Below are positions 5,665 through 18,981 of a stretch of 64,000 bases of DNA, one piece after another. Position 1 is the stretch's first letter. Every line of letters begins with the position of its first letter. Under the pieces are notes generated by a model that did not search any database, was not told the origin of the DNA, and worked only from the letters and a program-made list of their open reading frames with translations. The DNA comes from Mycobacteriales bacterium (GTDB lineage Bacteria > Actinomycetota > Actinomycetes > Mycobacteriales > CADCTP01), in contig DATBFW010000145.1 in the NCBI GenBank assembly GCA_036558285.1, positions 19,214 to 83,213 of the forward strand. Reading direction: 5' to 3'. The position numbers were made by a program, and so were the translations under genes.

Positions 5665-5850
5665 ATGACGGAGAGCCGACGCAGTGGGCGTGGGATCGGC
5701 TACGTGCTCAAGCGCCGGGTGGCGGACGTGGCGGGTTCCTGGACACGATCGAAGCACGTACGGAGCATCCTGGCGAAACTGAGCCTGTGCGAGGTCGACG
5801 ACGACCACCGCCGGGTGCTCGCCGTGCTCACCTTCCTCGAGGCGTCCTAA
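5665..5850 (+). pseudogene. Remnant of a NarL/LuxR-type response regulator (decayed paralogue of 11991-12650)
   Basis: GYVLKRRVADV...KHVRSILAKLSLCEVDDDHRRVLAVLTFLEAS parallels GYLLKDRVVDM...EKHVRSILAKLDLPETEDDHRRVLAVVTFLGAR of the intact gene. The receiver domain and most of the HTH are missing. Confidence 0.65.
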
Positions 5851-5855
5851 TGGCC

Positions 5856-6218
5856 CTAGCCGGCGAGCAGGTCGCGGATCGCGCCGGCGGACAGCGAGAT
5901 CTTCGGGATGAACCCGACCGCGGGGCTGGCGGCGATCAGCTCGGCGTAGTCCTCCTCGGGATGGGTCGAGATCAGGATCACCGGCGGCGCCGCCGGGCCG
6001 CCGGCGTCGTGCAGCCGGTGGCTCAGCTCGAGGCCGCTCTCCCCGCCCAGGTCGATGTCCATGAGCACGACGTCCGGACGCAGATCCGCCGTCTGCCGCA
6101 GTGCCTCGGCACCGGTCGACGCCACCCCGGCCACGGTGATCCCCTGCAGCTCGAGCAGGCCGCGGGCGGCAGCGAGGAACTGCGGACTGTCGTCGACGAC
6201 CAGGCAGCGCAATTCCAT
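5856..6218 (-). CDS. Single-domain response regulator (REC only), paralogue 1
   Basis: MELRCLVVDDSP..RPDVVLMDIDLGGESG..PVILISTH..VGFIPK carries the acidic pocket, acceptor Asp, Thr/Ser and Lys positions. No output domain. Confidence 0.85.
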   Translation of the reverse strand: MELRCLVVDDSPQFLAAARGLLELQGITVAGVASTGAEALRQTADLRPDVVLMDIDLGGESGLELSHRLHDAGGPAAPPVILISTHPEEDYAELIAASPAVGFIPKISLSAGAIRDLLAG

Positions 6219-6252
6219 GACTCGATCGTGCAAGGCCGGCCTCCGGCATGCA

Positions 6253-10509: not shown

Positions 10510-10580
10510 TGGCGGCTAGCAGGAACTCCGGCACTCCGGGTGGCATGGCCGGCGGCCTCCGGCTGACCGGGCTGACAGCC
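10510..10580 (+). promoter_or_regulatory. Conserved upstream module A: CTAG palindrome (TGGCGGCTAGCAGGAA) + TGGCATGG box + GGCTGACCGGGCTGACAGCC
   Basis: Aligns base-for-base with module B (12790-12860), including an identical 21-mer, and with module C. Its first base lies 144 nt before the Ser/Thr kinase ATG. Confidence 0.5.
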
Positions 10581-10653
10581 GCGACGGGAGAGGCCATTTT
10601 TGCTTGTGTCCGGTCGAGTACGCCCGATTGTCCACAAAGGAGCATCGACCGCC

Positions 10654-11547
10654 ATGACCGCTTACTGTCCACAGCCGACGATCCGCCAGCCGCGCGCCGC
10701 GCGAGCGCGGGTTCCGGTAAGGGCGGCCCGGTCACCGGTCGGCGAGCTGCTGGCCGGCCGCTACCGGGTGGCGGAGCGGGTCGGTCACGGCGCGACCGGC
10801 GGGGTGTGGCGCGCCGAGGACGAGCTGCTCGACCGGGACGTCGCGGTCAAGCGGCTCCCCCATCGACAGCCGGAGGGGTTGGCCGAGGCCCGCATCGCGG
10901 CCAGGGTGCGGCATCCCTCGGTCGCCACCGTGCACGACCTGGTCGAGCACGACGGGTCGTCCTGGATGGTGATGGACTACTACCCGGGCGGCACGCTCGC
11001 CGCGCTGCTGCAGGAGCAGTCCCGGCTGCCTCCGCCGGTGATCGCGGCGCTCGGCCTCCAGCTGGTCACCGCGCTCGACGCGGTGCACGCCGCCGGCATC
11101 GTGCACTGCGACGTCAAGCCGGCCAACCTGGTGCTCGGTGCGGACGGCCGGCTGGTGCTGGTGGACTTCGGGATCGCCGAGGCCGGCGACGCCGGTCCGG
11201 TCAACCCCGTCCGTGACGAGGGCTTCGTCGTCGGCTCCCCGGCGTACATGGCGCCGGAGCTGGTCCGCGGCGAGACCGCGTGCCCGGCGGCCGACGTGTG
11301 GTCGCTCGGCGCGACCCTGTACGCCGGGGTCGAGGGGCGGCCGCCGTTCGCGGGCGACGCGGCGGAGATCCTCGCAGCGGTGCTCAACGACCCGCCGCTG
11401 CCGACCCGCCGGGCCGGCCCGCTGGCGCCGCTGCTCGATCGGATGCTGGCCAAGGACCCGGCCCAGCGTCCCGCTCACGAGGCGATCCGGACGGCGCTGG
11501 CGGACGTCTCCCTCGCCCCGGCCGCGGGTGTGGTCGGCCAGGGCTGA
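10654..11547 (+). CDS. Ser/Thr protein kinase, catalytic domain only
   Basis: RBS AAAGGAG. GHGATGGVW (Gly loop), VAVKRL, HCDVKPANLV, DFG and SPAYMAPE are all intact. No TM or sensor domain follows. Confidence 0.9.
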   Translation: MTAYCPQPTIRQPRAARARVPVRAARSPVGELLAGRYRVAERVGHGATGGVWRAEDELLDRDVAVKRLPHRQPEGLAEARIAARVRHPSVATVHDLVEHDGSSWMVMDYYPGGTLAALLQEQSRLPPPVIAALGLQLVTALDAVHAAGIVHCDVKPANLVLGADGRLVLVDFGIAEAGDAGPVNPVRDEGFVVGSPAYMAPELVRGETACPAADVWSLGATLYAGVEGRPPFAGDAAEILAAVLNDPPLPTRRAGPLAPLLDRMLAKDPAQRPAHEAIRTALADVSLAPAAGVVGQG

Positions 11548-11567: not shown

Positions 11568-11602
11568 TGCGCGGCGGCGATCCGCCGGGCAGCGTTGTCC
11601 GC

Positions 11603-12013
11603 ATGACACTGCGGTGCCTGATCGTCGACGACAGCCCTGCCTTCGTCGCGACCGCCCGCAGCCTGCTGGAGGGCCAGGGGATGAGCGTGCTCGGCGCGGT
11701 CGCCACCGGGGCCGACGCGCTACGGCTGACCGCGGACCTGCGCCCCGACGTCGTGCTGGTCGACCTGGATCTCGGCCCGGAGAGCGGCCTCGAGGTGGCC
11801 GGACGGCTGGCCCGGTCCGCCGAACCCGCGCCAACGCCGGTGATCCTCATCTCGACCTACGCGCAGGAGGACTTCGCCGACCTCATCGCCGACAGCCCCG
11901 CCGTCGGGTTCATCCCCAAGACCGCACTGGCGGTCGCCGCCATCCGCGAACTGCTCGGCGGTCAGGGCACCGCGGACCCGACCGGGACCGTCACCGGGCC
12001 CCGAGGAAGGTGA
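11603..12013 (+). CDS. Single-domain response regulator (REC only), paralogue 2
   Basis: MTLRCLIVDDSP..RPDVVLVDLDLGPESG..PVILISTY..VGFIPK. Roughly two-thirds identical by eye to 5856-6218. An upstream in-frame ATG at 11567 is possible. Confidence 0.85.
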   Translation: MTLRCLIVDDSPAFVATARSLLEGQGMSVLGAVATGADALRLTADLRPDVVLVDLDLGPESGLEVAGRLARSAEPAPTPVILISTYAQEDFADLIADSPAVGFIPKTALAVAAIRELLGGQGTADPTGTVTGPRGR

Positions 12014-12650
12014 CGACAGCCAGCACCCGGCGGTGGTCGTCCTCGGTCTCCGGCAGGTCGAGCTTGGCCAGGATGCTGCGCACGTGCTTCTCGACGGTGC
12101 CCTCGCTCACCCACAGCCGTCTCGCGATGCCCCCGTTCGACCGGCCCTCCGCCATCAGCGCCAGCACCTCGCGCTCCCGGCCGCTCAGCCGGCCCAGCGG
12201 GTCGTGGCGACGGCGGACCATGACCAACTCCTGCACCAGGGCGGGATCGACGACCGACCCGCCCTTCGCGATGCGGTCGAGCGTGTCGGCGAACTCGGCC
12301 ATGTCGACGACCCGGTCCTTGAGCAGGTAACCGACCGCACGGCCGGTGGCCAGCAGACCCATCGCCTGCTCGACGTCGGCGTGCGCGGAGAGGACCAGGA
12401 TGCCGATCTCCGGATGCTGCTCGCGGATCTGGCGGGCGGCGTCGAGGCCCTCGGTCGTCCTGGTCGGCGGCATCCGGACGTCCACCACGACCACGTCCGG
12501 CGTGCAGTCCGCCACCAGCGCCAGCAGCTGTGTCCCGTCGCCAGCCTGGCCGACCACCTGCATTCCCGACCGCTCGAGCAGGCTGGCCATCCCCTCCCGG
12601 AGCAGGACGTCGTCATCGGCCAGGACGATCCGGAGCCCACTGCCGCCCAC
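11991..12650 (-). CDS. NarL/FixJ-family two-component response regulator (REC + LuxR HTH)
   Basis: LRIVLADDDVLLREG..DVVVVDVRMP..LVLSAH..GYLLK, then LSGREREVLALMAEGRSNGGIARRLWVSEGTVEKHVRSILAKL. Confidence 0.92.
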   Translation of the reverse strand: MGGSGLRIVLADDDVLLREGMASLLERSGMQVVGQAGDGTQLLALVADCTPDVVVVDVRMPPTRTTEGLDAARQIREQHPEIGILVLSAHADVEQAMGLLATGRAVGYLLKDRVVDMAEFADTLDRIAKGGSVVDPALVQELVMVRRRHDPLGRLSGREREVLALMAEGRSNGGIARRLWVSEGTVEKHVRSILAKLDLPETEDDHRRVLAVVTFLGAR

Positions 12651-12789
12651 CGGTCACGCTCCGGGAGCCGGGCGGCCCGCCGCCGTCGGCCGCGTCGTCA
12701 TCGGGCCATTGTCGGCGAGCGGCCGCGGACCCGGTACCCCCACGCGCAGGTACGGCCGTACACCCGGCCCGACGGACGCCGGGACGGTC

Positions 12790-12860
12790 TGGCGGCTAGC
12801 TGGAAGGCCGACGCTGCTGATGGTGTGGACGCGGCCTGGTGGCTGACCGGGCTGACAGCC
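12790..12860 (+). promoter_or_regulatory. Conserved upstream module B: CTAG palindrome (TGGCGGCTAGCTGGAA) + TGGTGTGG box + GGCTGACCGGGCTGACAGCC
   Basis: See module A. Sits in the divergent region between the NarL-type regulator (start 12650) and the cupredoxin gene. First base is 146 nt before ATG 12936. Confidence 0.5.
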
Positions 12861-12935
12861 GGGACCGGCCGCGGGATGGTCATGGCGTCGGAGGCCACGC
12901 GGCGTCCGGACAAGGGTCCGCAAAAGGGATCGGGG

Positions 12936-13358
12936 ATGTCCAGGACAGCAGTAGCCCGGATACGAGCGCGCCGCCTGCTCGTCGGGATCGTCGCCATGCT
13001 GGCAGCTCTCACGACGGTCGCCGCGTGCGGCTCGGACTCGGGCGGCGGTGGCGGCGCGACCCCGCCACCGGCCTCGGCGTCCGCGTCCAACGGATCGGCC
13101 GCCCAGGGAGGCGGATCCACGGTGGAGATCATGAACTTCATGTTCATGCCGGGCACCCTGACCGTCCCCGCCGGCACCACGGTGACCTGGAAGTTCGACG
13201 ACTCGACCCAGCACACCGTCAACGCCGACGACAATTCGTTCTCGTCGTCGCCGATGGCGAACAGCTAGACGTTCACGCACAAGCTCACGACCGCCGGCAC
13301 GGTGACCTATCACTGCTCGATACACCCGTTCATGAAGGGCACGATCGTCGTCACGTAG
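12936..13358 (+). pseudogene. Cupredoxin (plastocyanin/amicyanin-like) lipoprotein gene interrupted by an in-frame TAG at 13266-13268
   Basis: Lipobox LAALTTVAAC. VEIMNFMFMPGTLTVPAGTTVTWKFDDSTQHTV..SSPMANS-stop-TFTHKLTTAGTVTYHCSIHPFMKGTIVVT. The Cys/His/Met copper ligands lie after the stop, in the same frame. Confidence 0.75.
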
Positions 13359-16300
13359 CAGCTGGTCGTGCCAGCGGCAGCTCGGCCCGGACGGTGGTGC
13401 CGGTGCCGGGCGCGCTGGTCAGCCACATGCGGCCGCCGAGCGCCTCGACCCGGTCCTTGACCCCGATCAGCCCGGATCCGCCGTGCAGGTCGGCGCCGCC
13501 GCGGCCGTCGTCGCTCACCCGGACCCGCAGGACCCCGTCGTCCGCGTCGACGTCGACGGTGACCGCCGTGGCCTCCGCGTGTTTGGCCGTGTTGGTCAAC
13601 ATCTCGGCGACGGCGAAGTACGTGGCGATCTCGACCTGCTCCGGCAGCCGCCCACCGACCTGTACGTCGAGGCGAACCGGCACGGTGCAGCGGCGGGCCA
13701 GCACGCGCAGCGCGGGACCGAGGCCGCCCTCGGTCAGAGCGGCCGGGTGGATGCCGCGGGCCAGCTCGCGCAGCTCGCCGACCGCGGTGTCGGCCTCGGC
13801 GGCGATGGCGTCCAGCCGCGCGTCCAACTCCGCGGACCCGGCCGGGCCGGCCTCCTTGGCGATCCGGGCCTGGATCGCGAGGCTGACCAGCCGCTGCTGG
13901 GCGCCGTCGTGCAGGTCCCGCTCGATGCGCCGGCGGGTCTGGTCGGCCGCCGTGACGATCCGCGCGCGGGACGCGGTGAGCTCCGAGTACAGCTGGGCGT
14001 TGTCGAGGGAGACGGTGAGCTGGGCGGCGATGAGCCTGACCGCGTCGAGCCGCTCGCTGGTGAACGCGCCGCGGATGAGCCGGTTCTCCAGCAGCAGCAC
14101 CGCCCGGAGCGACTCGCGGCCGAGGACGGGCAGCGCCAGCACGGAGCAGCGGCTCAGGCCGGCGAAGTACGGGTCGCGGGCGAACCGGTCGTCGCAGGTC
14201 GCGTCGTCCACGACCAGCGGCTGCCGGGCCCGCCGCACGTACCGCAGCACGGACATCGGCAGGTCTGACCCGCGGCCCGCGCCGGTGCCGCCCGGGCCGG
14301 GCAGCCAGGCCTGCTCGTCCTCGCTCCACAGCACCAACCGCACGCCGGTGGCTCCGGTCATCGTGCTGACCACCTGGACGACGCGCGAGCGCAGCCGCTC
14401 GATGCTGGTCTCCGAACTCAGTGCCTGCGACGCGGAGAGGATGCCGAGCAGGTCGAGCGTGCCGGTGGTGACGGTCGGGCGCGGGCCGACCGGGGCGCCG
14501 GCCGCCGGGTCGGTGTCCGGTCGCAGCGTCGGGTGCGCCCAGTCGAGCTGGGCGACCTTCGCCGTCGCGCCCCACACCGCGTAGGCGTGCCTGGCCTGCG
14601 CGAGCAGGTCCAAGCCGGCGTGCTCGACGCCGTGGGCGAGGTAGAAGCGGGCCGCGCGCTCGTCGATCAGCGCCCGGTGCCAGGGCCGGCCGCGGCCGGC
14701 GACGGCGCGTCGGGCGGCGTCGAAGGCGAGCACGGCGATGCGGAAGTCGCCGACCGTCCAGGCGCGCTCGGCCTCGACCAGCCGCAGCAGGTGCAGGAAG
14801 TTGGCCGGCCCGTCGGCGGCGCGGGCGGACAGCCACCGGGTCAGCTCGTCCAACTCGGCCAGCAGGGCGGCCCGCTCGTCGCCGTCGGTGCCGCGGGCCT
14901 GCCCGGCCAGCGCCAGCCCGCGCAGCAGCCGGGCGACCCCGGTCGGGTAGATGCCCTGCGCCGCTGTGAGCAGCGGCGTCGCCGCCGCGGTGTGCCGCAG
15001 CAGCCCGGGCGCGTCGTCGAGGACGGCGGCCGCGATCGCCCGGTTGATGTGCGTGTAGACGAGCGCCGCCGGGTTGTCGGCCGGTCGGTCGATCGGGATG
15101 ACGTCGCCGGCCGGTTCGCTTTCCCCGCGCAGCACGCCGCCCAGCCACCGGTACGGGTCGAGCAGCTCGCCGGACTGCGCGTTGCCGGTCCGGCGGACGA
15201 AGGCCAGGCACGCCTCCACGGCCGAGACGTAGGCGTCCAAGGACGGCGACGACTCCAGCAGGCCGGCCACCTCGGTGTGGCAGGCGTATCCGGCCCAGGC
15301 CAGCTCGCCGCCCGCGACCAGGCCCTCCCTGGCCCGCGCGGCCTCCCGGACGGCCAGCTCGATCGGCTCGAACCAGCAGCAGAGGGTGGCGAACGACGCG
15401 CGCACCAACGACGTCTCCGGCTCGAAGCCGCGGGACTCACCGAACGCCAGCGCGTACCGCATCGCCCGGTAGCCGACGGCGTAGTCGCCGCGCAACGCCA
15501 TCACGGCGTTGGCGGCGTGGGTCGCCGGGCCGATCAGGGACCGGCCGGGGCCGTGCTCCAGCCAGATCCGTACCGTCTCCAGGCTCAGCCACGCGTACAG
15601 GGAGAAGTCCGACGCGAAGAAGGCGGGCGGCAGGATCGCGTTGGTCAGCCGGGTCCCGGCGAGCAGCGCCGGATCGGTGATGTCCGGCCGGGCCGGGCCG
15701 GCAGAGCCCTCGACGTGGTCGAGCCACCGGTAGAGGTGATCGACCTGGGCGTCGAGCTCGGCCGGGAACCGCTCGGCGGTCGGAACGGCGATGCCGAGGT
15801 CGCGCAGCGCCGCGACGCCGAGAGCGACCGCGTCGGCGAAGCGGTTGCGGTGCGTCAGGCTGCTCAGCTGCACCGCCGTCGCGTCCGCCCGCTCCAGCGC
15901 GAGCGGGCACATCCCCTCGAGAATGCCGTACTCCTCGTCCGCCTCCTCCAGCCGCCCGAGGCCGAACAGGGCGGCGTGCCGGCGGGTGTGGATCTCGACG
16001 AGCGCGTCGGTCCGGTCGTCGTCGACGAGGGTCAGCGCGGCGCCGAGCAGGGCGCACACCAGCGCGTGGTCGGCCAGCGACCGGGCGCCCTCGGCCGCGC
16101 GCCGCAGCAGCTCTACCACCCGCTCCCGCTCGGCCGGGTCGTCCAGCGCGTCGATGACCGGCAGGTACTGCTCGGCGGCGACCGCGCACAGCTCGGGCAC
16201 CGGCGCCAGCCGGCGGGCCATGGTCAGGTGCAGGTCGCGTCGCCGGTCCGGGCCGAGGCCGCGGACGATCGCCTCCTGGATGCGGTCGTGGCGGAACCGC

Positions 16301-18267
16301 ACCGCCTCCTCGGCGCCCGGCTCGACCACCAGGACGCCCTCGTCGAGGGCCGGGGCGAGCTGCCGTTCCAGCGTGTCGGCCGGCTCGCCGGTGGCGGTCT
16401 GCAGCGCGTTGGCGGTGGCGCGCCCGCCGAGGCACGCCATCGCCTCGACCAACTGCCGGGACGGCGCCGGCATGTCCGCGACCGGCGTCGGCAGCGGCCC
16501 CCCGGCGTCGGGCCGGTCGAGGCGCTCACGGGCGGCGGCTGCGTCCCAGCGCCAGCCGCCGCCGGTCGCGGTGAGCACGCCCTCGCGGCGCAGCGCGTTG
16601 AGCAGTTCCACCGTCTCGTACGGGTTGCCGGCGGTGTGCAGCCCGACCAGCTCGGCCAGCTCCGCCGCGTCGGCCGGGTCCGCCCGCAGCATCTCGGCGA
16701 CCATGGTGGTCAGGCCGGCGGCGGGCAGGTTGGCGAGCCGGACGTGCCGCACGCCGGCCCGGTCCTGCCACCGGGACAGCGGCCCTGCCAGCGGATTCGC
16801 GCCGGTCACCGCCTGCTCCCGGTACGCGCACACGACCAGCAGGCCCTCGATCGGCTCGTCCTCCTCCAGCAGGAGGTCGACGAAGCCGAGCGGGGTTCGG
16901 CCGACCCACTGCAGGTCGTCGAGGACGAGCACGATCGGTCGCGCCGGTGACGCGGCCGCCCGCAGCACCTCGACGCCGTTGCGCTGGCCGCGGATCTGCA
17001 CGGTCATCGGATCCCCGGTGTCCGGCGGCACCGCCAGCAGCGCGCCGTACTCCGGGACCACCGCGGCCATCAGGCCGGCGCTGGCACCGAGCGCCGCCCG
17101 CATCCGCTCGCGCACCTCGACCAGCTCGTCCTCCGGCTCGGCCAGCAGCAGCCGGCCGAGCGTGCGGAACGCCCGGTAGACCGCGCTGGCCTCCAGGTCC
17201 CGCCGGTACTGGTCGAACTTGCCGGCCACGAACCAGCCGCCGGCGCGGGTCACCACTGGCCGCAGCTCGTCGATCAGCGCGGTCTTGCCGACCCCGGCCG
17301 CGCCGCCGACGAGCACCGCCCGGCCGCGCCCGGCGAGCGCGTCGTCGAACGCCTCGTGCAGCGTCGCGACCTCGGCCTCGCGGCCCACCAGCCTGGACGG
17401 CGGCAGCAGCCGCAGCGGGACGTCGCCCCGGCCGACGCGCACCGGCGCCGCGGCCCGATCCGGGCGGGCGTCCCGTACCCGCTGGAGGTCGTGGAGCAGG
17501 CCGTCCGCGGTCTGGTAGCGGTTGTCCGGCTCCTTCTCCAGCAGGTGCAGGATGATCTCGGACAGCGGCAGCGGCATGGCGGCGTTCATCTCGGCCGGCG
17601 ACACCGGGACCCGGGCGAGGTGGTCGTGGGTGAGCCGCAGCGGGTCGCCGGCACCGAACGGCGGTGCGCCCGTCGCCAGCTCGTACAGCGTCGCACCTAA
17701 GGCGTACAGGTCGGCCCGCTGGTCCACGGAACGGCCGGTGCGCCCGGTCTGCTCCGGGGCCAGGTACGCGAGCGTGCCGACGATCTCGGTGTGGTGGGTG
17801 AACTCGGGCCGGATCTCGGCCAGCGGCGTCGCCAGGCCGAAGCCGACCAGGCAGGGCGTGCCGTCCCGGGACAGCACGACGTTCGCCGGGGTGATGTCGC
17901 GGTGCAGCACACCCTGGCGGTGCATCCCCGCCACCGCGCCGGCCAGCGCGGACCCCAGCCGGACCAGGGCCGCGGCGTCCAGCGGCGTCGGCGCGCTGGC
18001 CAGGCTGGGGCCGCCGAGGTCCAGCAGCGAGATCGACCCCGGATACCGCGGCTCGTCCAGCAGCTGCACGACCCCGGCGACGCCGACCAGCCGCTGCAGC
18101 ACCGCCCGCTCCTGCCGCAGCCGGCGCTCGGCGTCCGGCCCCAGCGGCTGCTTGCGGATGACCGTCCCGCCGGGGAGGAAGATGCGGGTGACCCGGGTAC
18201 GGCCGGTCTCGCGCAGCACGTCAGCCGGACCAGGCAGCTCTCCGCCTGTCTGCATCGGCGCCTCCAC
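13351..18267 (-). CDS. Multidomain signalling protein: kinase-like domain + AAA/STAND ATPase + helical repeat region + GAF + HisKA_3/HATPase histidine kinase
   Basis: N-terminal HRDITPANVV..LVGFGLAT..LAYLAPEQ. Walker A VLVGGAAGVGKTAL. GAF region ..DPYFAGLSRCSVLALPVLGRESLRAVLLLENR. H-box RRIERDLHDGAQQRLVSL and a C-terminal ATPase (..GGSGLIGVKDRVEALGGRMW). The start may be GTG 18267 or ATG 18255. Confidence 0.92.
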   Translation of the reverse strand: MEAPMQTGGELPGPADVLRETGRTRVTRIFLPGGTVIRKQPLGPDAERRLRQERAVLQRLVGVAGVVQLLDEPRYPGSISLLDLGGPSLASAPTPLDAAALVRLGSALAGAVAGMHRQGVLHRDITPANVVLSRDGTPCLVGFGLATPLAEIRPEFTHHTEIVGTLAYLAPEQTGRTGRSVDQRADLYALGATLYELATGAPPFGAGDPLRLTHDHLARVPVSPAEMNAAMPLPLSEIILHLLEKEPDNRYQTADGLLHDLQRVRDARPDRAAAPVRVGRGDVPLRLLPPSRLVGREAEVATLHEAFDDALAGRGRAVLVGGAAGVGKTALIDELRPVVTRAGGWFVAGKFDQYRRDLEASAVYRAFRTLGRLLLAEPEDELVEVRERMRAALGASAGLMAAVVPEYGALLAVPPDTGDPMTVQIRGQRNGVEVLRAAASPARPIVLVLDDLQWVGRTPLGFVDLLLEEDEPIEGLLVVCAYREQAVTGANPLAGPLSRWQDRAGVRHVRLANLPAAGLTTMVAEMLRADPADAAELAELVGLHTAGNPYETVELLNALRREGVLTATGGGWRWDAAAARERLDRPDAGGPLPTPVADMPAPSRQLVEAMACLGGRATANALQTATGEPADTLERQLAPALDEGVLVVEPGAEEAVRFRHDRIQEAIVRGLGPDRRRDLHLTMARRLAPVPELCAVAAEQYLPVIDALDDPAERERVVELLRRAAEGARSLADHALVCALLGAALTLVDDDRTDALVEIHTRRHAALFGLGRLEEADEEYGILEGMCPLALERADATAVQLSSLTHRNRFADAVALGVAALRDLGIAVPTAERFPAELDAQVDHLYRWLDHVEGSAGPARPDITDPALLAGTRLTNAILPPAFFASDFSLYAWLSLETVRIWLEHGPGRSLIGPATHAANAVMALRGDYAVGYRAMRYALAFGESRGFEPETSLVRASFATLCCWFEPIELAVREAARAREGLVAGGELAWAGYACHTEVAGLLESSPSLDAYVSAVEACLAFVRRTGNAQSGELLDPYRWLGGVLRGESEPAGDVIPIDRPADNPAALVYTHINRAIAAAVLDDAPGLLRHTAAATPLLTAAQGIYPTGVARLLRGLALAGQARGTDGDERAALLAELDELTRWLSARAADGPANFLHLLRLVEAERAWTVGDFRIAVLAFDAARRAVAGRGRPWHRALIDERAARFYLAHGVEHAGLDLLAQARHAYAVWGATAKVAQLDWAHPTLRPDTDPAAGAPVGPRPTVTTGTLDLLGILSASQALSSETSIERLRSRVVQVVSTMTGATGVRLVLWSEDEQAWLPGPGGTGAGRGSDLPMSVLRYVRRARQPLVVDDATCDDRFARDPYFAGLSRCSVLALPVLGRESLRAVLLLENRLIRGAFTSERLDAVRLIAAQLTVSLDNAQLYSELTASRARIVTAADQTRRRIERDLHDGAQQRLVSLAIQARIAKEAGPAGSAELDARLDAIAAEADTAVGELRELARGIHPAALTEGGLGPALRVLARRCTVPVRLDVQVGGRLPEQVEIATYFAVAEMLTNTAKHAEATAVTVDVDADDGVLRVRVSDDGRGGADLHGGSGLIGVKDRVEALGGRMWLTSAPGTGTTVRAELPLARPAAT

Positions 18268-18353
18268 GCTCGGACCTGGGCGCGGCTCCCGCCGTGCCTA
18301 CGCCCGCCCCACCCACTCGCGCAAGAGTGGCACCCAAGCCCGGCCCAACGGCA

Positions 18354-18427
18354 TACCAGCTAGCCGGAAGGGCGAGGCTGCGGATGGCATGGACCCCGGT
18401 AGGCGGCTGGCCGGGCAGACGGCAGCC
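18354..18427 (+). promoter_or_regulatory. Conserved upstream module C: CTAG palindrome (TACCAGCTAGCCGGAA) + TGGCATGG box + GGCTGGCCGGGCAGACGGCAGCC
   Basis: Third copy of the module, in the divergent region between the giant kinase gene and the LuxR solo. First base is 133 nt before ATG 18487. The GGCTG/CAGCC arms are kept although the loop is 3 nt longer. Confidence 0.5.
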
Positions 18428-18486
18428 GTGCCGGCAGCGATGGTTGGTGTACATCGAGCGGAGCGGTGCGACACCGGAGGTAGCTC

Positions 18487-18981
18487 ATGACCGCGGCAAC
18501 GGCCCCGCCGGACGTCCTCGACGGCAGCGCGCCGCTCCCGGGCGGCGGCCCGGCCGGGGACCTGCGGGCCGTGTTCGGCGACCTGATGCGGCTGCACGCG
18601 GAGGCGGCCGGGATCCAGGCCGAGGCGCGCCACCGGGTGCCGCACGACCTGGACGAACGGCTCGCCGGGCTCGCCAGGGGTCTCGGCCGGGCCGCCGGCC
18701 GGCTGTCGTCCTCCTACCCGTCCCCGCACGCCGTCCGGCCCGTCGGGTCCGTCCGGCCCCGTCACTGGCAGGGGTGGGCTGCGCTGACCCCGGCGGAGCT
18801 TGAGGTGATCCGGGTGGTGGTGGCCGGCCGCACCAACCGGGAGGCGGCGGCGCTGCTGTTCCTGTCGCCGCACACGGTCAGCTCACACCTCCGGCACGCG
18901 TACGCGAAGCTCGGCATCAACTCCCGCGTCGAACTGGTCCGCGCGGCGGTGGCCACCGACATCCCCGGGCAGCAGCTGTAA
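18487..18981 (+). CDS. LuxR-family HTH regulator without a receiver domain (LuxR solo)
   Basis: RBS GGAGG. C-terminal LTPAELEVIRVVVAGRTNREAAALLFLSPHTVSSHLRHAYAKLGINSRVEL. The N-terminal ~95 aa has no recognisable domain. Confidence 0.85.
   Translation: MTAATAPPDVLDGSAPLPGGGPAGDLRAVFGDLMRLHAEAAGIQAEARHRVPHDLDERLAGLARGLGRAAGRLSSSYPSPHAVRPVGSVRPRHWQGWAALTPAELEVIRVVVAGRTNREAAALLFLSPHTVSSHLRHAYAKLGINSRVELVRAAVATDIPGQQL

What the first reader, a model, noticed from the sequence alone, without database searches (positions are those of the whole stretch)
13351..18267. 1638-aa kinase-like/STAND/GAF/histidine-kinase fusion whose Ser/Thr-kinase domain looks catalytically dead
**What the sequence shows.**
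- The N-terminal domain keeps the kinase fold landmarks (HRD, APE as LAPEQ).
- The catalytic loop reads HRDITPAN (17881-17904), where Thr replaces the canonical Lys.
- The Mg-binding DFG is GFG (GGC TTC GGC, 17836-17844).
- The stand-alone kinase 7 kb away (10654-11547) has HCDVKPAN and DFG intact. The substitutions are therefore not a general feature of this genome.
- The fusion continues with a Walker-A STAND/AAA module (GAAGVGKT), a long helical region, a GAF domain and a complete NarL-class histidine kinase (H-box RDLHDGAQQ).

**Inference.** A pseudokinase scaffold or sensor feeds a STAND switch that controls a His-kinase output. The NarL-type regulator at 11991-12650 and the two REC-only proteins are candidate partners.
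Basis: partly seen in the sequence, partly recalled or inferred. Interest (0 to 1): 0.6.

Follow-up and report, generated by a model that had tools for sequence, protein, structure and literature searches.

The report
Sensor histidine kinase with degenerate kinase-like domain
This is an ordinary member of a very large, already named bacterial family of giant cytoplasmic sensor histidine kinases; the odd motifs in its kinase-like head are family or lineage traits kept by selection, not private damage.

Summary
The ORF is real (13351-18255/18267, minus strand, GC3 0.96).

**Architecture:**
- Hanks-type kinase-like domain (predicted fold closest to PknB)
- STAND NTPase with a TPR-like solenoid (predicted fold closest to 6mfv, Apaf-1 and MalT)
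- GAF domain
- intact HisKA_3/HATPase_c histidine kinase

**Motifs:**
- HRDITPAN is not private. The catalytic-loop Lys is T/S/A in 116 of 121 closest homologues and mostly N in the wider family. The Gly-rich loop is also replaced family-wide by xxRTRVxR.
- The family consensus for DFG is DFA. GFG is a minority state that arose at least 6-8 times; a single origin is rejected.
- GFG is shared by this gene's nearest orthologues and same-genus copies, so it is not a sequencing error.
- The β3 Lys, αC Glu and HRD Asp stay invariant, and the domain is under purifying selection. It is therefore a conserved regulatory pseudokinase or atypical kinase, not a decaying one.

**New here:** the neighbouring canonical Ser/Thr kinase, a REC-only protein and the NarL regulator form a conserved gene neighbourhood with this kinase subfamily in several genomes.

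NCBI already names the architecture, and it has been described in cyanobacteria, in the CP1 kinase family and in fungi. Verdict: new member of a known kind, modest interest.

The parts
13351..18255 (-). Whole gene. It encodes 1634 aa from ATG 18255, or 1638 aa from GTG 18267. The stop codon is at 13351-13353.
   Evidence: The ORF is open with GC3 0.96. GGAGG lies 5 nt before ATG 18255, and 103 of 121 homologues start at this Met.
17482..18216 (-). Hanks-type kinase-like (pseudokinase) domain, residues 18-262.
   Evidence: - Pfam Pkinase scores 73.8 bits.
- The AF2 model has pTM 0.76 with N-lobe pLDDT about 90. The best Foldseek matches are PknB structures, TM 0.64-0.71.
- phmmer against PDB matches PknB at 1e-33 over the C-lobe only.
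- dN/dS against the L011 orthologue is 0.37.
18184..18213 (-). Replacement of the Gly-rich loop: RETGRTRVTR, residues 19-28. No Gly occupies any of the three GxGxxG positions.
   Evidence: R23, T24, R25 and R28 are near-invariant in 121 homologues. The wider family consensus is YESxRTRVxR.
18151..18153 (-). β3 Lys (K39, in VIRK). It is retained.
   Evidence: K in 121 of 121 homologues. The αC Glu E53 is also 121 of 121.
17881..17904 (-). Catalytic loop HRDITPAN, residues 122-129. The Lys is replaced by Thr; the HRD Asp and the loop Asn are retained.
   Evidence: Position 126 is T 95, S 11, A 10 of 121. D124 is 121 of 121 and N129 is 119 of 121. The wider family reads H(R/K)D(I/V)NPxN.
17836..17844 (-). 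GFG in place of DFG, residues 142-144 (GGC TTC GGC).
   Evidence: - Among 121 homologues: DFA 90, GFG 15, GFA 4, DFG 4.
- The Gly state needs 8 changes on the tree. A single origin is rejected, p-AU 1e-68.
- GFG is shared by L011, P0044, both G004 copies and the G012 orthologue.
16831..17394 (-). AAA_16 / STAND nucleotide-binding domain, residues 292-479. Walker A is at 17281-17304 and Walker B at 16906-16932.
   Evidence: Pfam AAA_16 scores 97.7 bits. The G..GKT and DD residues are invariant in 72 homologues. The predicted fold matches STAND proteins 6mfv, Apaf-1, CED-4 and MalT.
14518..16830 (-). Winged-helix/arm plus TPR-like α-solenoid, the presumed STAND sensor region, residues 480-1250.
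   Evidence: The AF2 model of residues 291-1250 has mean pLDDT 85.9 and is almost all paired helices. The best Foldseek match is 6mfv, a STAND protein with TPR, at E 4e-10. There is no Pfam hit and no PDB sequence hit.
14005..14400 (-). GAF domain, residues 1290-1421.
   Evidence: Pfam GAF scores 34.2 bits against a cut-off of 22.4.
13735..13935 (-). HisKA_3 dimerisation/phosphoacceptor domain, residues 1445-1511. The phosphoacceptor His1453 is at 13909-13911.
   Evidence: Pfam HisKA_3 scores 47.4 bits. The H-box ERDLHDGAQQ has its His in 71 of 72 homologues.
13369..13623 (-). HATPase_c catalytic domain, residues 1549-1633, with intact N, G1 and G2 boxes.
   Evidence: Pfam HATPase_c scores 47.0 bits. 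Box conservation is shown.
11991..12650 (-). NarL/LuxR-type response regulator (REC + GerE), the likely cognate regulator.
   Evidence: Pfam Response_reg plus GerE. Orthologues lie next to related kinases in L011 (94%), L026 (82%) and L031 (73%). A copy at about 65% lies 2-3 kb from the kinase in L033-L035.
11603..12013 (+). REC-only protein, convergent with the regulator. It is a likely second phosphoacceptor or phosphate sink.
   Evidence: tblastn against the L011 REC-only protein gives 88%. Orthologues adjoin related kinases in L026 (76%), L031 (70%) and L033-L035/L043 (47-51%).
10654..11547 (+). Stand-alone canonical Hanks Ser/Thr kinase with GxGxxG, VAVK, HCDVKPAN and DFG. It is a conserved neighbour of this kinase subfamily.
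   Evidence: Pfam Pkinase scores 149 bits. Orthologues lie beside a big histidine kinase of this family in L011 (91%), L026 (77%) and L033/L034/L035/L043 (56-59%).

Best explanation
The gene encodes a cytoplasmic multi-input sensor histidine kinase. NCBI names this family 'trifunctional serine/threonine-protein kinase/ATP-binding protein/sensor histidine kinase'.

**Shown:**
- It has a bilobal Hanks-type kinase-like domain, a STAND NTPase with a TPR-like solenoid, a GAF domain and an intact HisKA_3/HATPase_c transmitter.
- The kinase-like domain is atypical across the whole family. It has no Gly-rich loop, and the catalytic-loop Lys is T/S/A/N.
- In this lineage it has also lost the Mg-binding DFG Asp. 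That loss recurred at least 6-8 times in the family without relaxing constraint on the rest of the domain.

**Inferred:**
- The N-terminal domain no longer performs canonical Mg-ATP Ser/Thr phosphotransfer.
- It acts instead as a regulatory module, either a nucleotide-binding or allosteric switch or a docking surface. Its conserved K39-E53 pair, HRD Asp and very conserved activation segment through αF helix are what selection maintains.
- Signals sensed by the STAND/TPR and GAF parts set the autophosphorylation of His1453. The phosphoryl group then goes to the NarL-type regulator (11991-12650), with the REC-only protein (11603-12013) as a competing acceptor.
- The conserved neighbouring canonical Ser/Thr kinase (10654-11547) probably feeds into the same circuit.
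For: **Architecture**
- The predicted kinase fold is closest to PknB.
- The predicted STAND fold is closest to 6mfv, Apaf-1 and MalT.
- Walker A/B, the H-box and the N/G1/G2 boxes are intact and conserved.

**Family**
- 3690 hits in the word-index search, with the top 120 about 70% identical in the head domain and carrying the same Pfam set.
- 5283 cluster representatives at E<=1e-30.
- Named relatives occur in Pseudonocardia, Dactylosporangium, Amycolatopsis, Geomonas and Pseudoduganella.

**Motifs**
- K39, E53 and D124 are 121/121. Position 126 is T/S/A in 116/121. The DFG triplet is DFA 90, GFG 15, GFA 4.
- The wider family reads H(R/K)D(I/V)NPxN and DF(D/E/G/A/S).

**Recurrence**
- 8 changes are needed on both FastTree and IQ-TREE trees. 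One clade is rejected, ΔlnL 1248, p-AU 1e-68.

**Constraint retained**
- dN/dS is 0.37 between the two GFG orthologues, against 0.21-0.52 for the other domains.
- Column entropy is 0.595 in GFG lineages against 0.582±0.021 in DFA subsamples.
- Residues 151-200 show 91% pairwise identity, the highest in the protein.

**Metal site specifically eroding**
- D142G is coupled to A144G (79% versus 4%).
- The second Mg ligand, N129, is lost in 2/19 Gly lineages and 0/101 Asp lineages.

**Partners**
- Orthologous regulator, REC-only protein and stand-alone kinase lie beside related kinases.

**Literature**
- CP1 kinases are all linked to a COG3899 ATPase, often with GAF/PAS, and about 40% are pseudokinases, 17% lacking the DFG Asp (PMC12599244; bioRxiv 10.1101/2025.01.12.632604).
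Against: - No biochemical data exist for any member of this actinobacterial clade.
- The strict retention of β3 Lys, αC Glu, HRD Asp and, mostly, the loop Asn is what one expects of a domain that still binds nucleotide and might still catalyse something.
- CASK lacks the DFG Asp and is an active, Mg-independent kinase (PMC4718504).
- dN/dS values are inflated and imprecise at 96% GC3.
- Homologues were selected by similarity to the head domain, which biases the per-domain conservation comparison.
- The AF2 activation segment (residues 143-173) has low confidence, so active-site geometry was not assessed.
- Most family members examined have no adjacent regulator. The partner assignment therefore holds only for this subfamily.
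Confidence: 0.7

Rival explanations
1. The head domain is an atypical but active protein kinase. It phosphorylates Ser/Thr, on itself or on a partner such as the regulator or the REC-only protein, without the DFG Asp. It would do so in a metal-independent way like CASK, or use other residues such as the conserved Arg-rich β1-β2 loop to hold the phosphates.
For: K39, E53 and D124 are invariant and N129 is nearly so, including in the GFG lineages. The activation-loop Thr157, which aligns with PknB pThr171, is conserved in 115/121. CASK is a precedent (PMC4718504). R23, R25 and R28 are near-invariant.
Against: - Three separate elements used for ATP/Mg handling are missing at once: the Gly-rich loop, the catalytic-loop Lys and the DFG Asp.
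- CASK, by contrast, keeps its Gly-rich loop (PMC4718504).
- The Asp was lost repeatedly with no compensating pattern other than A144G.
- N129 begins to be lost only in Gly lineages.
Confidence: 0.2
2. The gene is on its way to being lost. GFG is one step in the decay of a dispensable accessory signalling module, and the head domain has no maintained function in this genome.
For: - A close relative (L039, about 90% nt identity) has a clean deletion of window 11580-18789, which removes the REC-only gene, the regulator, the cupredoxin gene and this kinase.
- The same-genus orthologue in G012 is frameshifted inside the head domain.
- Only 2 of 12 other species of the genus carry the family.
- The convergent cupredoxin gene has an in-frame TAG.
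- The genome holds a decayed paralogue remnant (L002).
Against: - The 4.9-kb frame is fully open, with GC3 0.96.
- Every functional motif of the NTPase and the histidine kinase is intact.
- dN/dS is below 1 in every domain against an orthologue that also has GFG.
- GFG lineages show no overall relaxation.
Confidence: 0.07
3. GGC at 17842-17844 is a sequencing or assembly error in a metagenome-assembled genome, and the true codon is GAC.
For: The genome is a 264-contig MAG.
Against: Independent assemblies carry Gly at the same position: the L011 orthologue, P0044, two copies in G004 and the orthologue in G012. The linked A144G change is present as well.
Confidence: 0.01

Closest known systems
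NCBI-named 'trifunctional serine/threonine-protein kinase/ATP-binding protein/sensor histidine kinase' proteins, also annotated 'AAA family ATPase' or 'ATP-binding sensor histidine kinase', in Pseudonocardia, Dactylosporangium, Amycolatopsis and Geomonas
   Same: Same domain order and length (about 1650 aa). The head domain is about 70% identical to actinobacterial members and 45-60% to other phyla. The atypical motif set is the same.
   Different: Nothing essential differs. This copy has the minority GFG state rather than the DFA or DFD consensus.
CP1 family of bacterial Ser/Thr kinases in the bSTK atlas (PMC12599244; bioRxiv 10.1101/2025.01.12.632604)
   Same: - Cytoplasmic kinase or pseudokinase domain, always fused to a COG3899-type predicted ATPase and often to GAF/PAS.
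- A mixed family with about 40% pseudokinases, 17% lacking the DFG Asp.
- The listed Leptospira CP1 motif HKSLCPGN/DFS resembles motifs seen here in distant relatives, HKNLNPDN/DFS.
   Different: CP1 is described mainly from cyanobacteria and proteobacteria, whereas this clade is actinobacterial. Formal assignment by the atlas's constraint patterns could not be run. The atlas also has a PknK family with multiple fused domains, which was not excluded.
Cyanobacterial 'dual protein kinases' (cbSTKIII: HstK/Alr2258, Pkn40/Pkn41) (PMC2176072)
   Same: N-terminal Ser/Thr-kinase-type domain, at least one GAF, and a C-terminal histidine kinase in one polypeptide. These form large paralogous families.
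   Different: They are cyanobacterial and were described with HisKA rather than HisKA_3 transmitters. Their motif state was not compared here, and the original HstK papers are not held in the library.
Fungal group X hybrid histidine kinases (C. albicans Chk1, S. pombe Mak2/Mak3) (PMC6324907, PMC9069115)
   Same: A Ser/Thr-kinase-related domain plus GAF ahead of a histidine kinase core. They have been studied as peroxide/oxidant sensors.
   Different: The fungal proteins are hybrid kinases with a C-terminal receiver that feeds an HPt relay. This protein has no fused receiver, and it uses a HisKA_3 transmitter with a separate NarL-type regulator.
M. tuberculosis PknB, the closest solved structure of the head domain
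   Same: Bilobal Hanks fold, TM 0.64-0.71. C-lobe sequence similarity is strong, E 1e-33, including the activation-loop Thr that aligns with pThr171.
   Different: PknB has GxGxxG, HRDVKPAN and DFG, and is a membrane receptor kinase with PASTA domains. Here the N-lobe sequence is too diverged to align by phmmer, and three ATP/Mg elements are replaced.
CASK, a eukaryotic CaM-kinase-like domain that lacks the DFG Asp
   Same: The Mg-binding Asp of DFG is absent while the β3 Lys is retained (PMC4718504).
   Different: [quoted passage not shown] It is not homologous beyond the shared kinase fold.

Membership tests
Hanks-type (eukaryotic-like) protein kinase, catalytically competent | Bilobal protein-kinase fold | tested here: met
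   Pfam PF00069 scores 73.8 bits against a cut-off of 31.7. The AF2 model's top 23 Foldseek matches are PknB/Stk1/PknA chains, prob 1.00.
Hanks-type (eukaryotic-like) protein kinase, catalytically competent | Gly-rich loop GxGxxG | tested here: not met
   Residues 19-28 read RETGRTRVTR, with no Gly at the three positions. This is family-wide.
Hanks-type (eukaryotic-like) protein kinase, catalytically competent | β3 Lys (VAIK) and αC Glu | tested here: met
   K39 and E53 are present and are 121/121 in homologues.
Hanks-type (eukaryotic-like) protein kinase, catalytically competent | Catalytic loop HRDxKxxN: Asp, Lys and Asn | tested here: not met
   The loop reads HRDITPAN. Asp and Asn are present, and Lys is replaced by Thr. 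The position is T/S/A in 116/121 homologues.
Hanks-type (eukaryotic-like) protein kinase, catalytically competent | Mg-binding Asp of DFG | tested here: not met
   The motif is GFG at residues 142-144. The position is Asp in 101/121 homologues and Gly in 19/121.
Hanks-type (eukaryotic-like) protein kinase, catalytically competent | Phosphotransfer to Ser/Thr | not testable with these tools
   This needs an in vitro kinase assay.
Pseudokinase (bioinformatic definition: lacks at least one of VAIK-Lys, HRD-Asp, DFG-Asp) | At least one of the three residues is absent | tested here: met
   The DFG Asp is absent (G142). The definition is as used in PMC12599244 and PMC4718504.
STAND NTPase | P-loop NTPase with Walker A and Walker B | tested here: met
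   GAAGVGKT and VLVLDDLQW are present, and the G..GKT and DD residues are invariant in 72 homologues. Pfam AAA_16 scores 97.7 bits.
STAND NTPase | NOD followed by a helical arm or winged helix and a repeat sensor (TPR-like) | tested here: met
   The AF2 model has pLDDT 85.9. Best Foldseek matches are 6mfv (STAND with TPR, E 4e-10), Apaf-1, CED-4 and MalT 8bob. TM-scores are low (0.17-0.5) because the model is multi-domain.
STAND NTPase | Nucleotide-dependent switching or oligomerisation | not testable with these tools
   Biochemistry is required.
HisKA_3 (NarL-class) sensor histidine kinase | H-box with the phosphoacceptor His in a HisKA_3 domain | tested here: met
   PF07730 scores 47.4 bits. 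ERDLHDGAQQ contains His1453.
HisKA_3 (NarL-class) sensor histidine kinase | HATPase_c with N, G1 and G2 boxes | tested here: met
   PF02518 scores 47.0 bits. EMLTNTAKHA, DDGRGG and GSGLIGVKDR are all present and conserved.
HisKA_3 (NarL-class) sensor histidine kinase | Cognate NarL/LuxR-type response regulator | tested here: inconclusive
   A REC+GerE regulator lies 0.7 kb downstream on the same strand, behind a convergent gene. Its orthologues lie beside related kinases in L011, L026 and L031. Phosphotransfer was not tested.
CP1 bSTK family (bSTK atlas) | Kinase domain physically linked to a COG3899-type ATPase, often with GAF/PAS | tested here: met
   The fusion to an AAA_16/STAND ATPase and GAF is shown. 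JGI annotates relatives as 'predicted ATPase/signal transduction histidine kinase'. COG3899 itself was not scored.
CP1 bSTK family (bSTK atlas) | Family-specific constraint pattern as defined by omcBPPS clustering | not testable with these tools
   The atlas profiles are not available here. Assignment to the PknK family or to no family is not excluded.
Fungal group X hybrid histidine kinase | C-terminal fused receiver domain (hybrid kinase) | tested here: not met
   The protein ends 5 residues after HATPase_c, and Pfam finds no Response_reg.
Anti-phage defence kinases (PD-T4-6, MADS Mad6, BREX PglW) and TOMM kinase/cyclase | Full-length match to the system's model above its cut-off | tested here: not met
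   Only the generic kinase C-lobe, and for TOMM the ATPase, matches. NCBIfam scores are far below cut-offs: Mad6 89.7 against 460, PglW 59.6 against 990, TOMM_kin_cyc 141 against 706.

The most novel reading that the evidence does not exclude
The conserved four-gene neighbourhood is one circuit that couples Hanks-type and two-component signalling through a kinase/pseudokinase pair. The four genes are the kinase-like/STAND/GAF histidine kinase, the stand-alone canonical Ser/Thr kinase, the REC-only protein and the NarL regulator. In this reading the stand-alone kinase docks on the degenerate head domain or phosphorylates it. A candidate site is the conserved activation-loop Thr157, which aligns with PknB pThr171. 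This would gate the STAND switch and so the histidine kinase output. It would also explain why the head can lose its Mg site repeatedly while its activation segment and C-lobe stay about 91% conserved.
Probability: 0.15. Interest if true: 0.6.

Novelty: new member of a known kind. Interest (0 to 1): 0.3.

Why it matters
The architecture is abundant in soil actinobacteria: thousands of relatives, with several paralogues per Pseudonocardia genome. It is already named and surveyed, so this copy changes no concept.

Three comparative points are useful for people who study bacterial pseudokinases:
1. In this clade the catalytic-loop Lys and the Gly-rich loop are absent family-wide, while the Lys-Glu pair and the HRD Asp are invariant.
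2. The Mg-binding Asp has been lost many times independently, almost always as DFA to GFG, without relaxing constraint on the domain. This is natural-experiment evidence that canonical phosphotransfer is not what selection maintains.
3. One subfamily travels with a canonical stand-alone Ser/Thr kinase, a REC-only protein and a NarL regulator. That gives a concrete, testable partner set for a family with no experimental data in actinobacteria.

Tried and rejected
- **GFG kinases specifically paired with the stand-alone canonical kinase.** Rejected. The same neighbourhood occurs with DFA-type kinases in P. xinjiangensis, P. alaniniphila and Pseudonocardia sp. CNS-004. Five other Gly-type members (P0044, P0088, P0039, P0090, P0026) lack it.
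- **A single origin of GFG.** Rejected by the AU test.
- **General relaxation of the head domain after Asp loss.** Not seen.
- **Defence-system membership.** Only generic kinase hits.
- **Rfam match for the three-copy upstream element.** None. RNAalifold gives only one compensatory pair, and there are no further copies in the genome.
- **PDB sequence relatives of the STAND/helical region.** None.
- **The original HstK and Pkn41 papers.** Not held in the library. A text search for 'HstK' returned unrelated papers.
- **Model coordinates.** They are not exposed, so K39-E53 geometry and the position of the Arg-rich loop relative to the cleft could not be measured.

Full report
**1. Observation**

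The minus-strand ORF 13351..18267 is open for 1638 codons. Its codon-position GC is 0.79/0.53/0.96, the signature of real genes in this 74% GC window.

- HRDITPAN, residues 122-129, nt 17881-17904
- GFG, residues 142-144, nt 17836-17844, GGC TTC GGC
- LAPEQ, residues 169-173

Pfam finds five domains, all above their gathering scores:

| Domain | Residues |
|---|---|
| Pkinase | 48-259 |
| AAA_16 | 292-479 |
| GAF | 1290-1421 |
| HisKA_3 | 1445-1511 |
| HATPase_c | 1549-1633 |

NCBIfam gives only sub-threshold partial matches, so no equivalog applies.

The true start is probably ATG 18255. GGAGG lies 5 nt upstream, and 103 of 121 homologues begin at the aligned Met. The protein is then 1634 aa.

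Residues 19-28 read RETGRTRVTR, with no Gly at any of the three GxGxxG positions.

**2. Anatomy**

*Head domain.*
- An AlphaFold2 model of the head (pTM 0.76; N-lobe pLDDT about 90; activation segment 143-173 low) is a complete bilobal kinase fold.
- Its best Foldseek matches are M. tuberculosis PknB structures, TM 0.64-0.71.
- By sequence only the C-lobe aligns with PknB, at 1e-33. HRDITPAN lies opposite HRDVKPAN, GFGLA opposite DFGIA, and Thr157 opposite PknB Thr171. The PknB residue numbering comes from my own knowledge.

*Central region.*
- A model of residues 291-1250 (mean pLDDT 85.9) shows a P-loop domain followed by winged-helix elements and a long array of paired helices.
- Its best matches are a STAND protein with TPR (6mfv, E 4e-10), Apaf-1, CED-4 and MalT.
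- This confirms the STAND reading. The region has no Pfam hit and no PDB sequence hit.

*NTPase and transmitter motifs.* Walker A, Walker B, the H-box (His1453) and the N, G1 and G2 boxes are intact. All are near-invariant in 72 full-length homologues.

**3. Are the substitutions private?**

No.
- The word-index search returned 3690 relatives. The best 120 are about 70% identical over the head and carry the same Pfam set. They come from Pseudonocardia, Dactylosporangium, Amycolatopsis, a Streptosporangiaceae bacterium and many soil metagenomes.
- In the alignment of 121 sequences, K39, E53 and D124 are invariant, H122 is 120/121 and N129 is 119/121.
- The catalytic-loop 'Lys' position is T 95, S 11, A 10.
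- The DFG triplet is DFA 90, GFG 15, GFA 4, DFG 4.
- In 88 more distant representatives (45-68% identity, taken from 5283 clusters with E<=1e-30), the consensus is YESxRTRVxR / VIxK / E / H(R/K)D(I/V)NPxN / DF(D/E/G/A/S) / APE.

So Lys-to-Thr and the missing Gly loop are ancestral family traits. The family's usual 'DFG' is DFA or DFD. GFG is a minority state.

**4. History of GFG**

- On a FastTree tree of all 121 sequences, and on an IQ-TREE tree of 66 sequences by 1254 columns, the Gly state needs 8 changes. At least 6-7 of these are forced by well-supported branches.
- Holding all Gly rows together costs 1248 log-likelihood units, p-AU 1e-68.
- This gene groups with P0002 (the syntenic metagenome contig L011) and P0044. 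Both are GFG.
- In the same genus, both copies in G004 and the orthologue in G012 are GFG too.
- D142G is tightly coupled to A144G, 79% against 4%.
- The Gly lineages show no overall relaxation. Mean column entropy is 0.595 against 0.582±0.021 for size-matched Asp subsamples.
- K39, E53 and D124 remain 19/19 in the Gly lineages.
- The only other catalytic residue that starts to vary is N129, the second Mg ligand: lost in 2/19 Gly lineages and 0/101 Asp lineages.
- Between the two GFG orthologues (window and L011), Nei-Gojobori dN/dS by domain is:

| Domain | dN/dS |
|---|---|
| Head | 0.37 |
| NTPase | 0.24 |
| Helical region | 0.52 |
| GAF | 0.45 |
| HisKA_3 | 0.24 |
| HATPase_c | 0.21 |

- Absolute values are inflated by the 96% GC3. 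The ranking still shows the head is not decaying.
- Residues 151-200 (activation segment, APE, αF) are the most conserved stretch of the whole protein, 91% pairwise. The caveat is that homologues were selected on the head domain.

**5. Neighbourhood**

The nearest orthologue locus (L011) is syntenic. Its gene order is:
- GerE-only gene, divergent
- the big histidine kinase
- a convergent cupredoxin-like lipoprotein
- the NarL regulator (94% identical)
- the REC-only protein (88%)
- the stand-alone Pkinase (91%)
- cupin, MarR and GH30 genes

A more distant GFG member (P0011, L026) has the regulator 60 nt downstream of the kinase, followed by the REC-only gene and the stand-alone kinase. Identities are 82%, 76% and 77%. 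A DFA member (P0005, L031) has the regulator (73%) and the REC-only protein (70%) but no kinase within 5 kb.

I then searched with the stand-alone kinase as query. Its orthologues (56-59%) in P. xinjiangensis, P. alaniniphila, Pseudonocardia sp. CNS-004 and P. adelaidensis each lie directly beside a big histidine kinase of this family and a REC-only gene, with a NarL regulator 2-3 kb away. Those kinases are DFA-type.

Two conclusions follow:
- The stand-alone canonical kinase is a conserved neighbour of one subfamily of these sensors.
- It is not a companion specific to GFG forms. I considered that idea and rejected it.

Other family members sit in unrelated contexts without a regulator. The family as a whole is therefore mostly 'orphan'.

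Both the regulator and the REC-only protein keep the acidic pocket, the phosphoacceptor Asp, the Thr/Ser and the Lys, read directly from the translations.

**6. Dispensability**

- The family is patchy: 2 of 12 other species of the genus carry it.
- The G012 orthologue is frameshifted after EIRPEFTH.
- A close relative (L039, about 90% nt identity) has a clean deletion of window 11580-18789. It removes the REC-only gene, the regulator, the cupredoxin gene, this kinase and the 5' part of the GerE gene.
- The window's cupredoxin gene has an in-frame TAG where the orthologue has Gln.
- The genome also holds a remnant paralogue with HRAISPAT + GFG, joined out of frame to a HATPase_c tail.

This is an accessory module with high turnover. 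The copy in the window is nevertheless intact and constrained.

**7. Mechanism**

*Shown:*
- the domain set
- an intact NTPase and transmitter
- a degenerate ATP/Mg site with the Lys-Glu pair and the HRD Asp retained
- purifying selection
- a conserved partner neighbourhood

*Inferred, roughly 70% confidence:*
- The head is a regulatory pseudokinase. It binds nucleotide and/or a partner, and it has lost canonical Mg-ATP phosphotransfer.
- The STAND/TPR and GAF parts integrate intracellular signals and control autophosphorylation of His1453.
- Output goes to the NarL regulator, with the REC-only protein as a competing acceptor.
- The review literature notes that an intact Gly-rich loop plus VAIK has been the best sequence predictor of activity. 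It also notes that CASK, which lacks the DFG Asp but keeps its Gly loop, is active without Mg (PMC4718504). The atypical-active rival therefore keeps about 20%.

**8. Comparison with known systems**

- NCBI already names relatives 'trifunctional serine/threonine-protein kinase/ATP-binding protein/sensor histidine kinase'.
- The bSTK atlas and its review describe the CP1 family. It is always fused to a COG3899 ATPase, often with GAF/PAS. About 40% are pseudokinases, and 17% lack the DFG Asp.
- Cyanobacterial 'dual protein kinases' (HstK, Pkn40/41) share the STK-GAF-HK layout.
- Fungal group X hybrid kinases (Chk1, Mak2/3) share an S/T-kinase-related domain plus GAF, but they carry a fused receiver.
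- This protein works like these. Formal CP1 membership could not be tested, and it fails the hybrid-kinase criterion for group X.
- PADLOC and NCBIfam defence or TOMM models match only generic parts, below their cut-offs.

**9. Verdict**

This is a new member of a known kind, and interest is modest. Its value lies in the comparative evidence for recurrent, tolerated loss of the Mg-binding Asp, and in the conserved kinase / REC-only / regulator neighbourhood. Together these give testable partners for an uncharacterised but very abundant actinobacterial sensor family.

Noticed in passing
window 10510-10588, 12790-12868, 18354-18432 (all + strand): A three-copy direct repeat of about 80 nt. Each copy lies just upstream of a + strand gene that flanks the big kinase: the stand-alone Pkinase, the cupredoxin-like gene and the GerE-only gene. 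The same three copies sit at the same three places in the syntenic contig L011. There is no Rfam hit, only one compensatory pair in RNAalifold, and no further copies in the genome. It is probably a shared promoter/operator or leader that defines a local regulon.
   Followed up: partly
window 12936-13358 (+): A cupredoxin-like lipoprotein gene convergent with the kinase; its last 8 nt (13351-13358) overlap the kinase's 3' end. It has an in-frame TAG at 13266-13268 where the L011 orthologue has Gln (..MANS*TFTH.. against ..MANGQTFAH..). It is either a pseudogene or an assembly error.
   Followed up: partly
L039 (close relative MAG, contig CAVSMA010000002.1) against window 11580-18789: A relative with about 90% nucleotide identity has a clean 7.2-kb deletion. 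It removes the REC-only gene, the NarL regulator, the cupredoxin gene, the big kinase and the 5' two-thirds of the GerE-only gene. About 6 nt overlap at the junction.
   Followed up: partly
L002 (own genome, contig C192), about 1573-2012: A decayed paralogue remnant. A 137-codon ORF encodes the middle of a kinase-like head (HRAISPAT, GFG, APE intact). A frame jump then leads into the last ~30 residues of a HATPase_c domain. This is an internal deletion or pseudogene, or a MAG mis-assembly.
   Followed up: no
G012 contig C6, 54259-55099 (loci L020/L023): The same-genus orthologue (84-87% identical, GFG) is split by a frameshift inside the activation segment, after EIRPEFTH. It is a pseudogene or an assembly error.
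   Followed up: no
window about 5740-6220 (-): A second receiver-domain locus. Its REC part is 66% identical to the REC-only protein at 11603-12013. A nearby + strand fragment at 5743-5838 is 78% identical to the C-terminal end of the NarL regulator at 11991-12650. This looks like a duplicated, partly decayed copy of the regulator pair.
   Followed up: no
L028, 5001-14929: In one metagenome contig, two full-length members of this kinase family lie in tandem (P0039, GFG type, followed by a second 1694-aa copy). This illustrates the paralogous expansion of the family.
   Followed up: no
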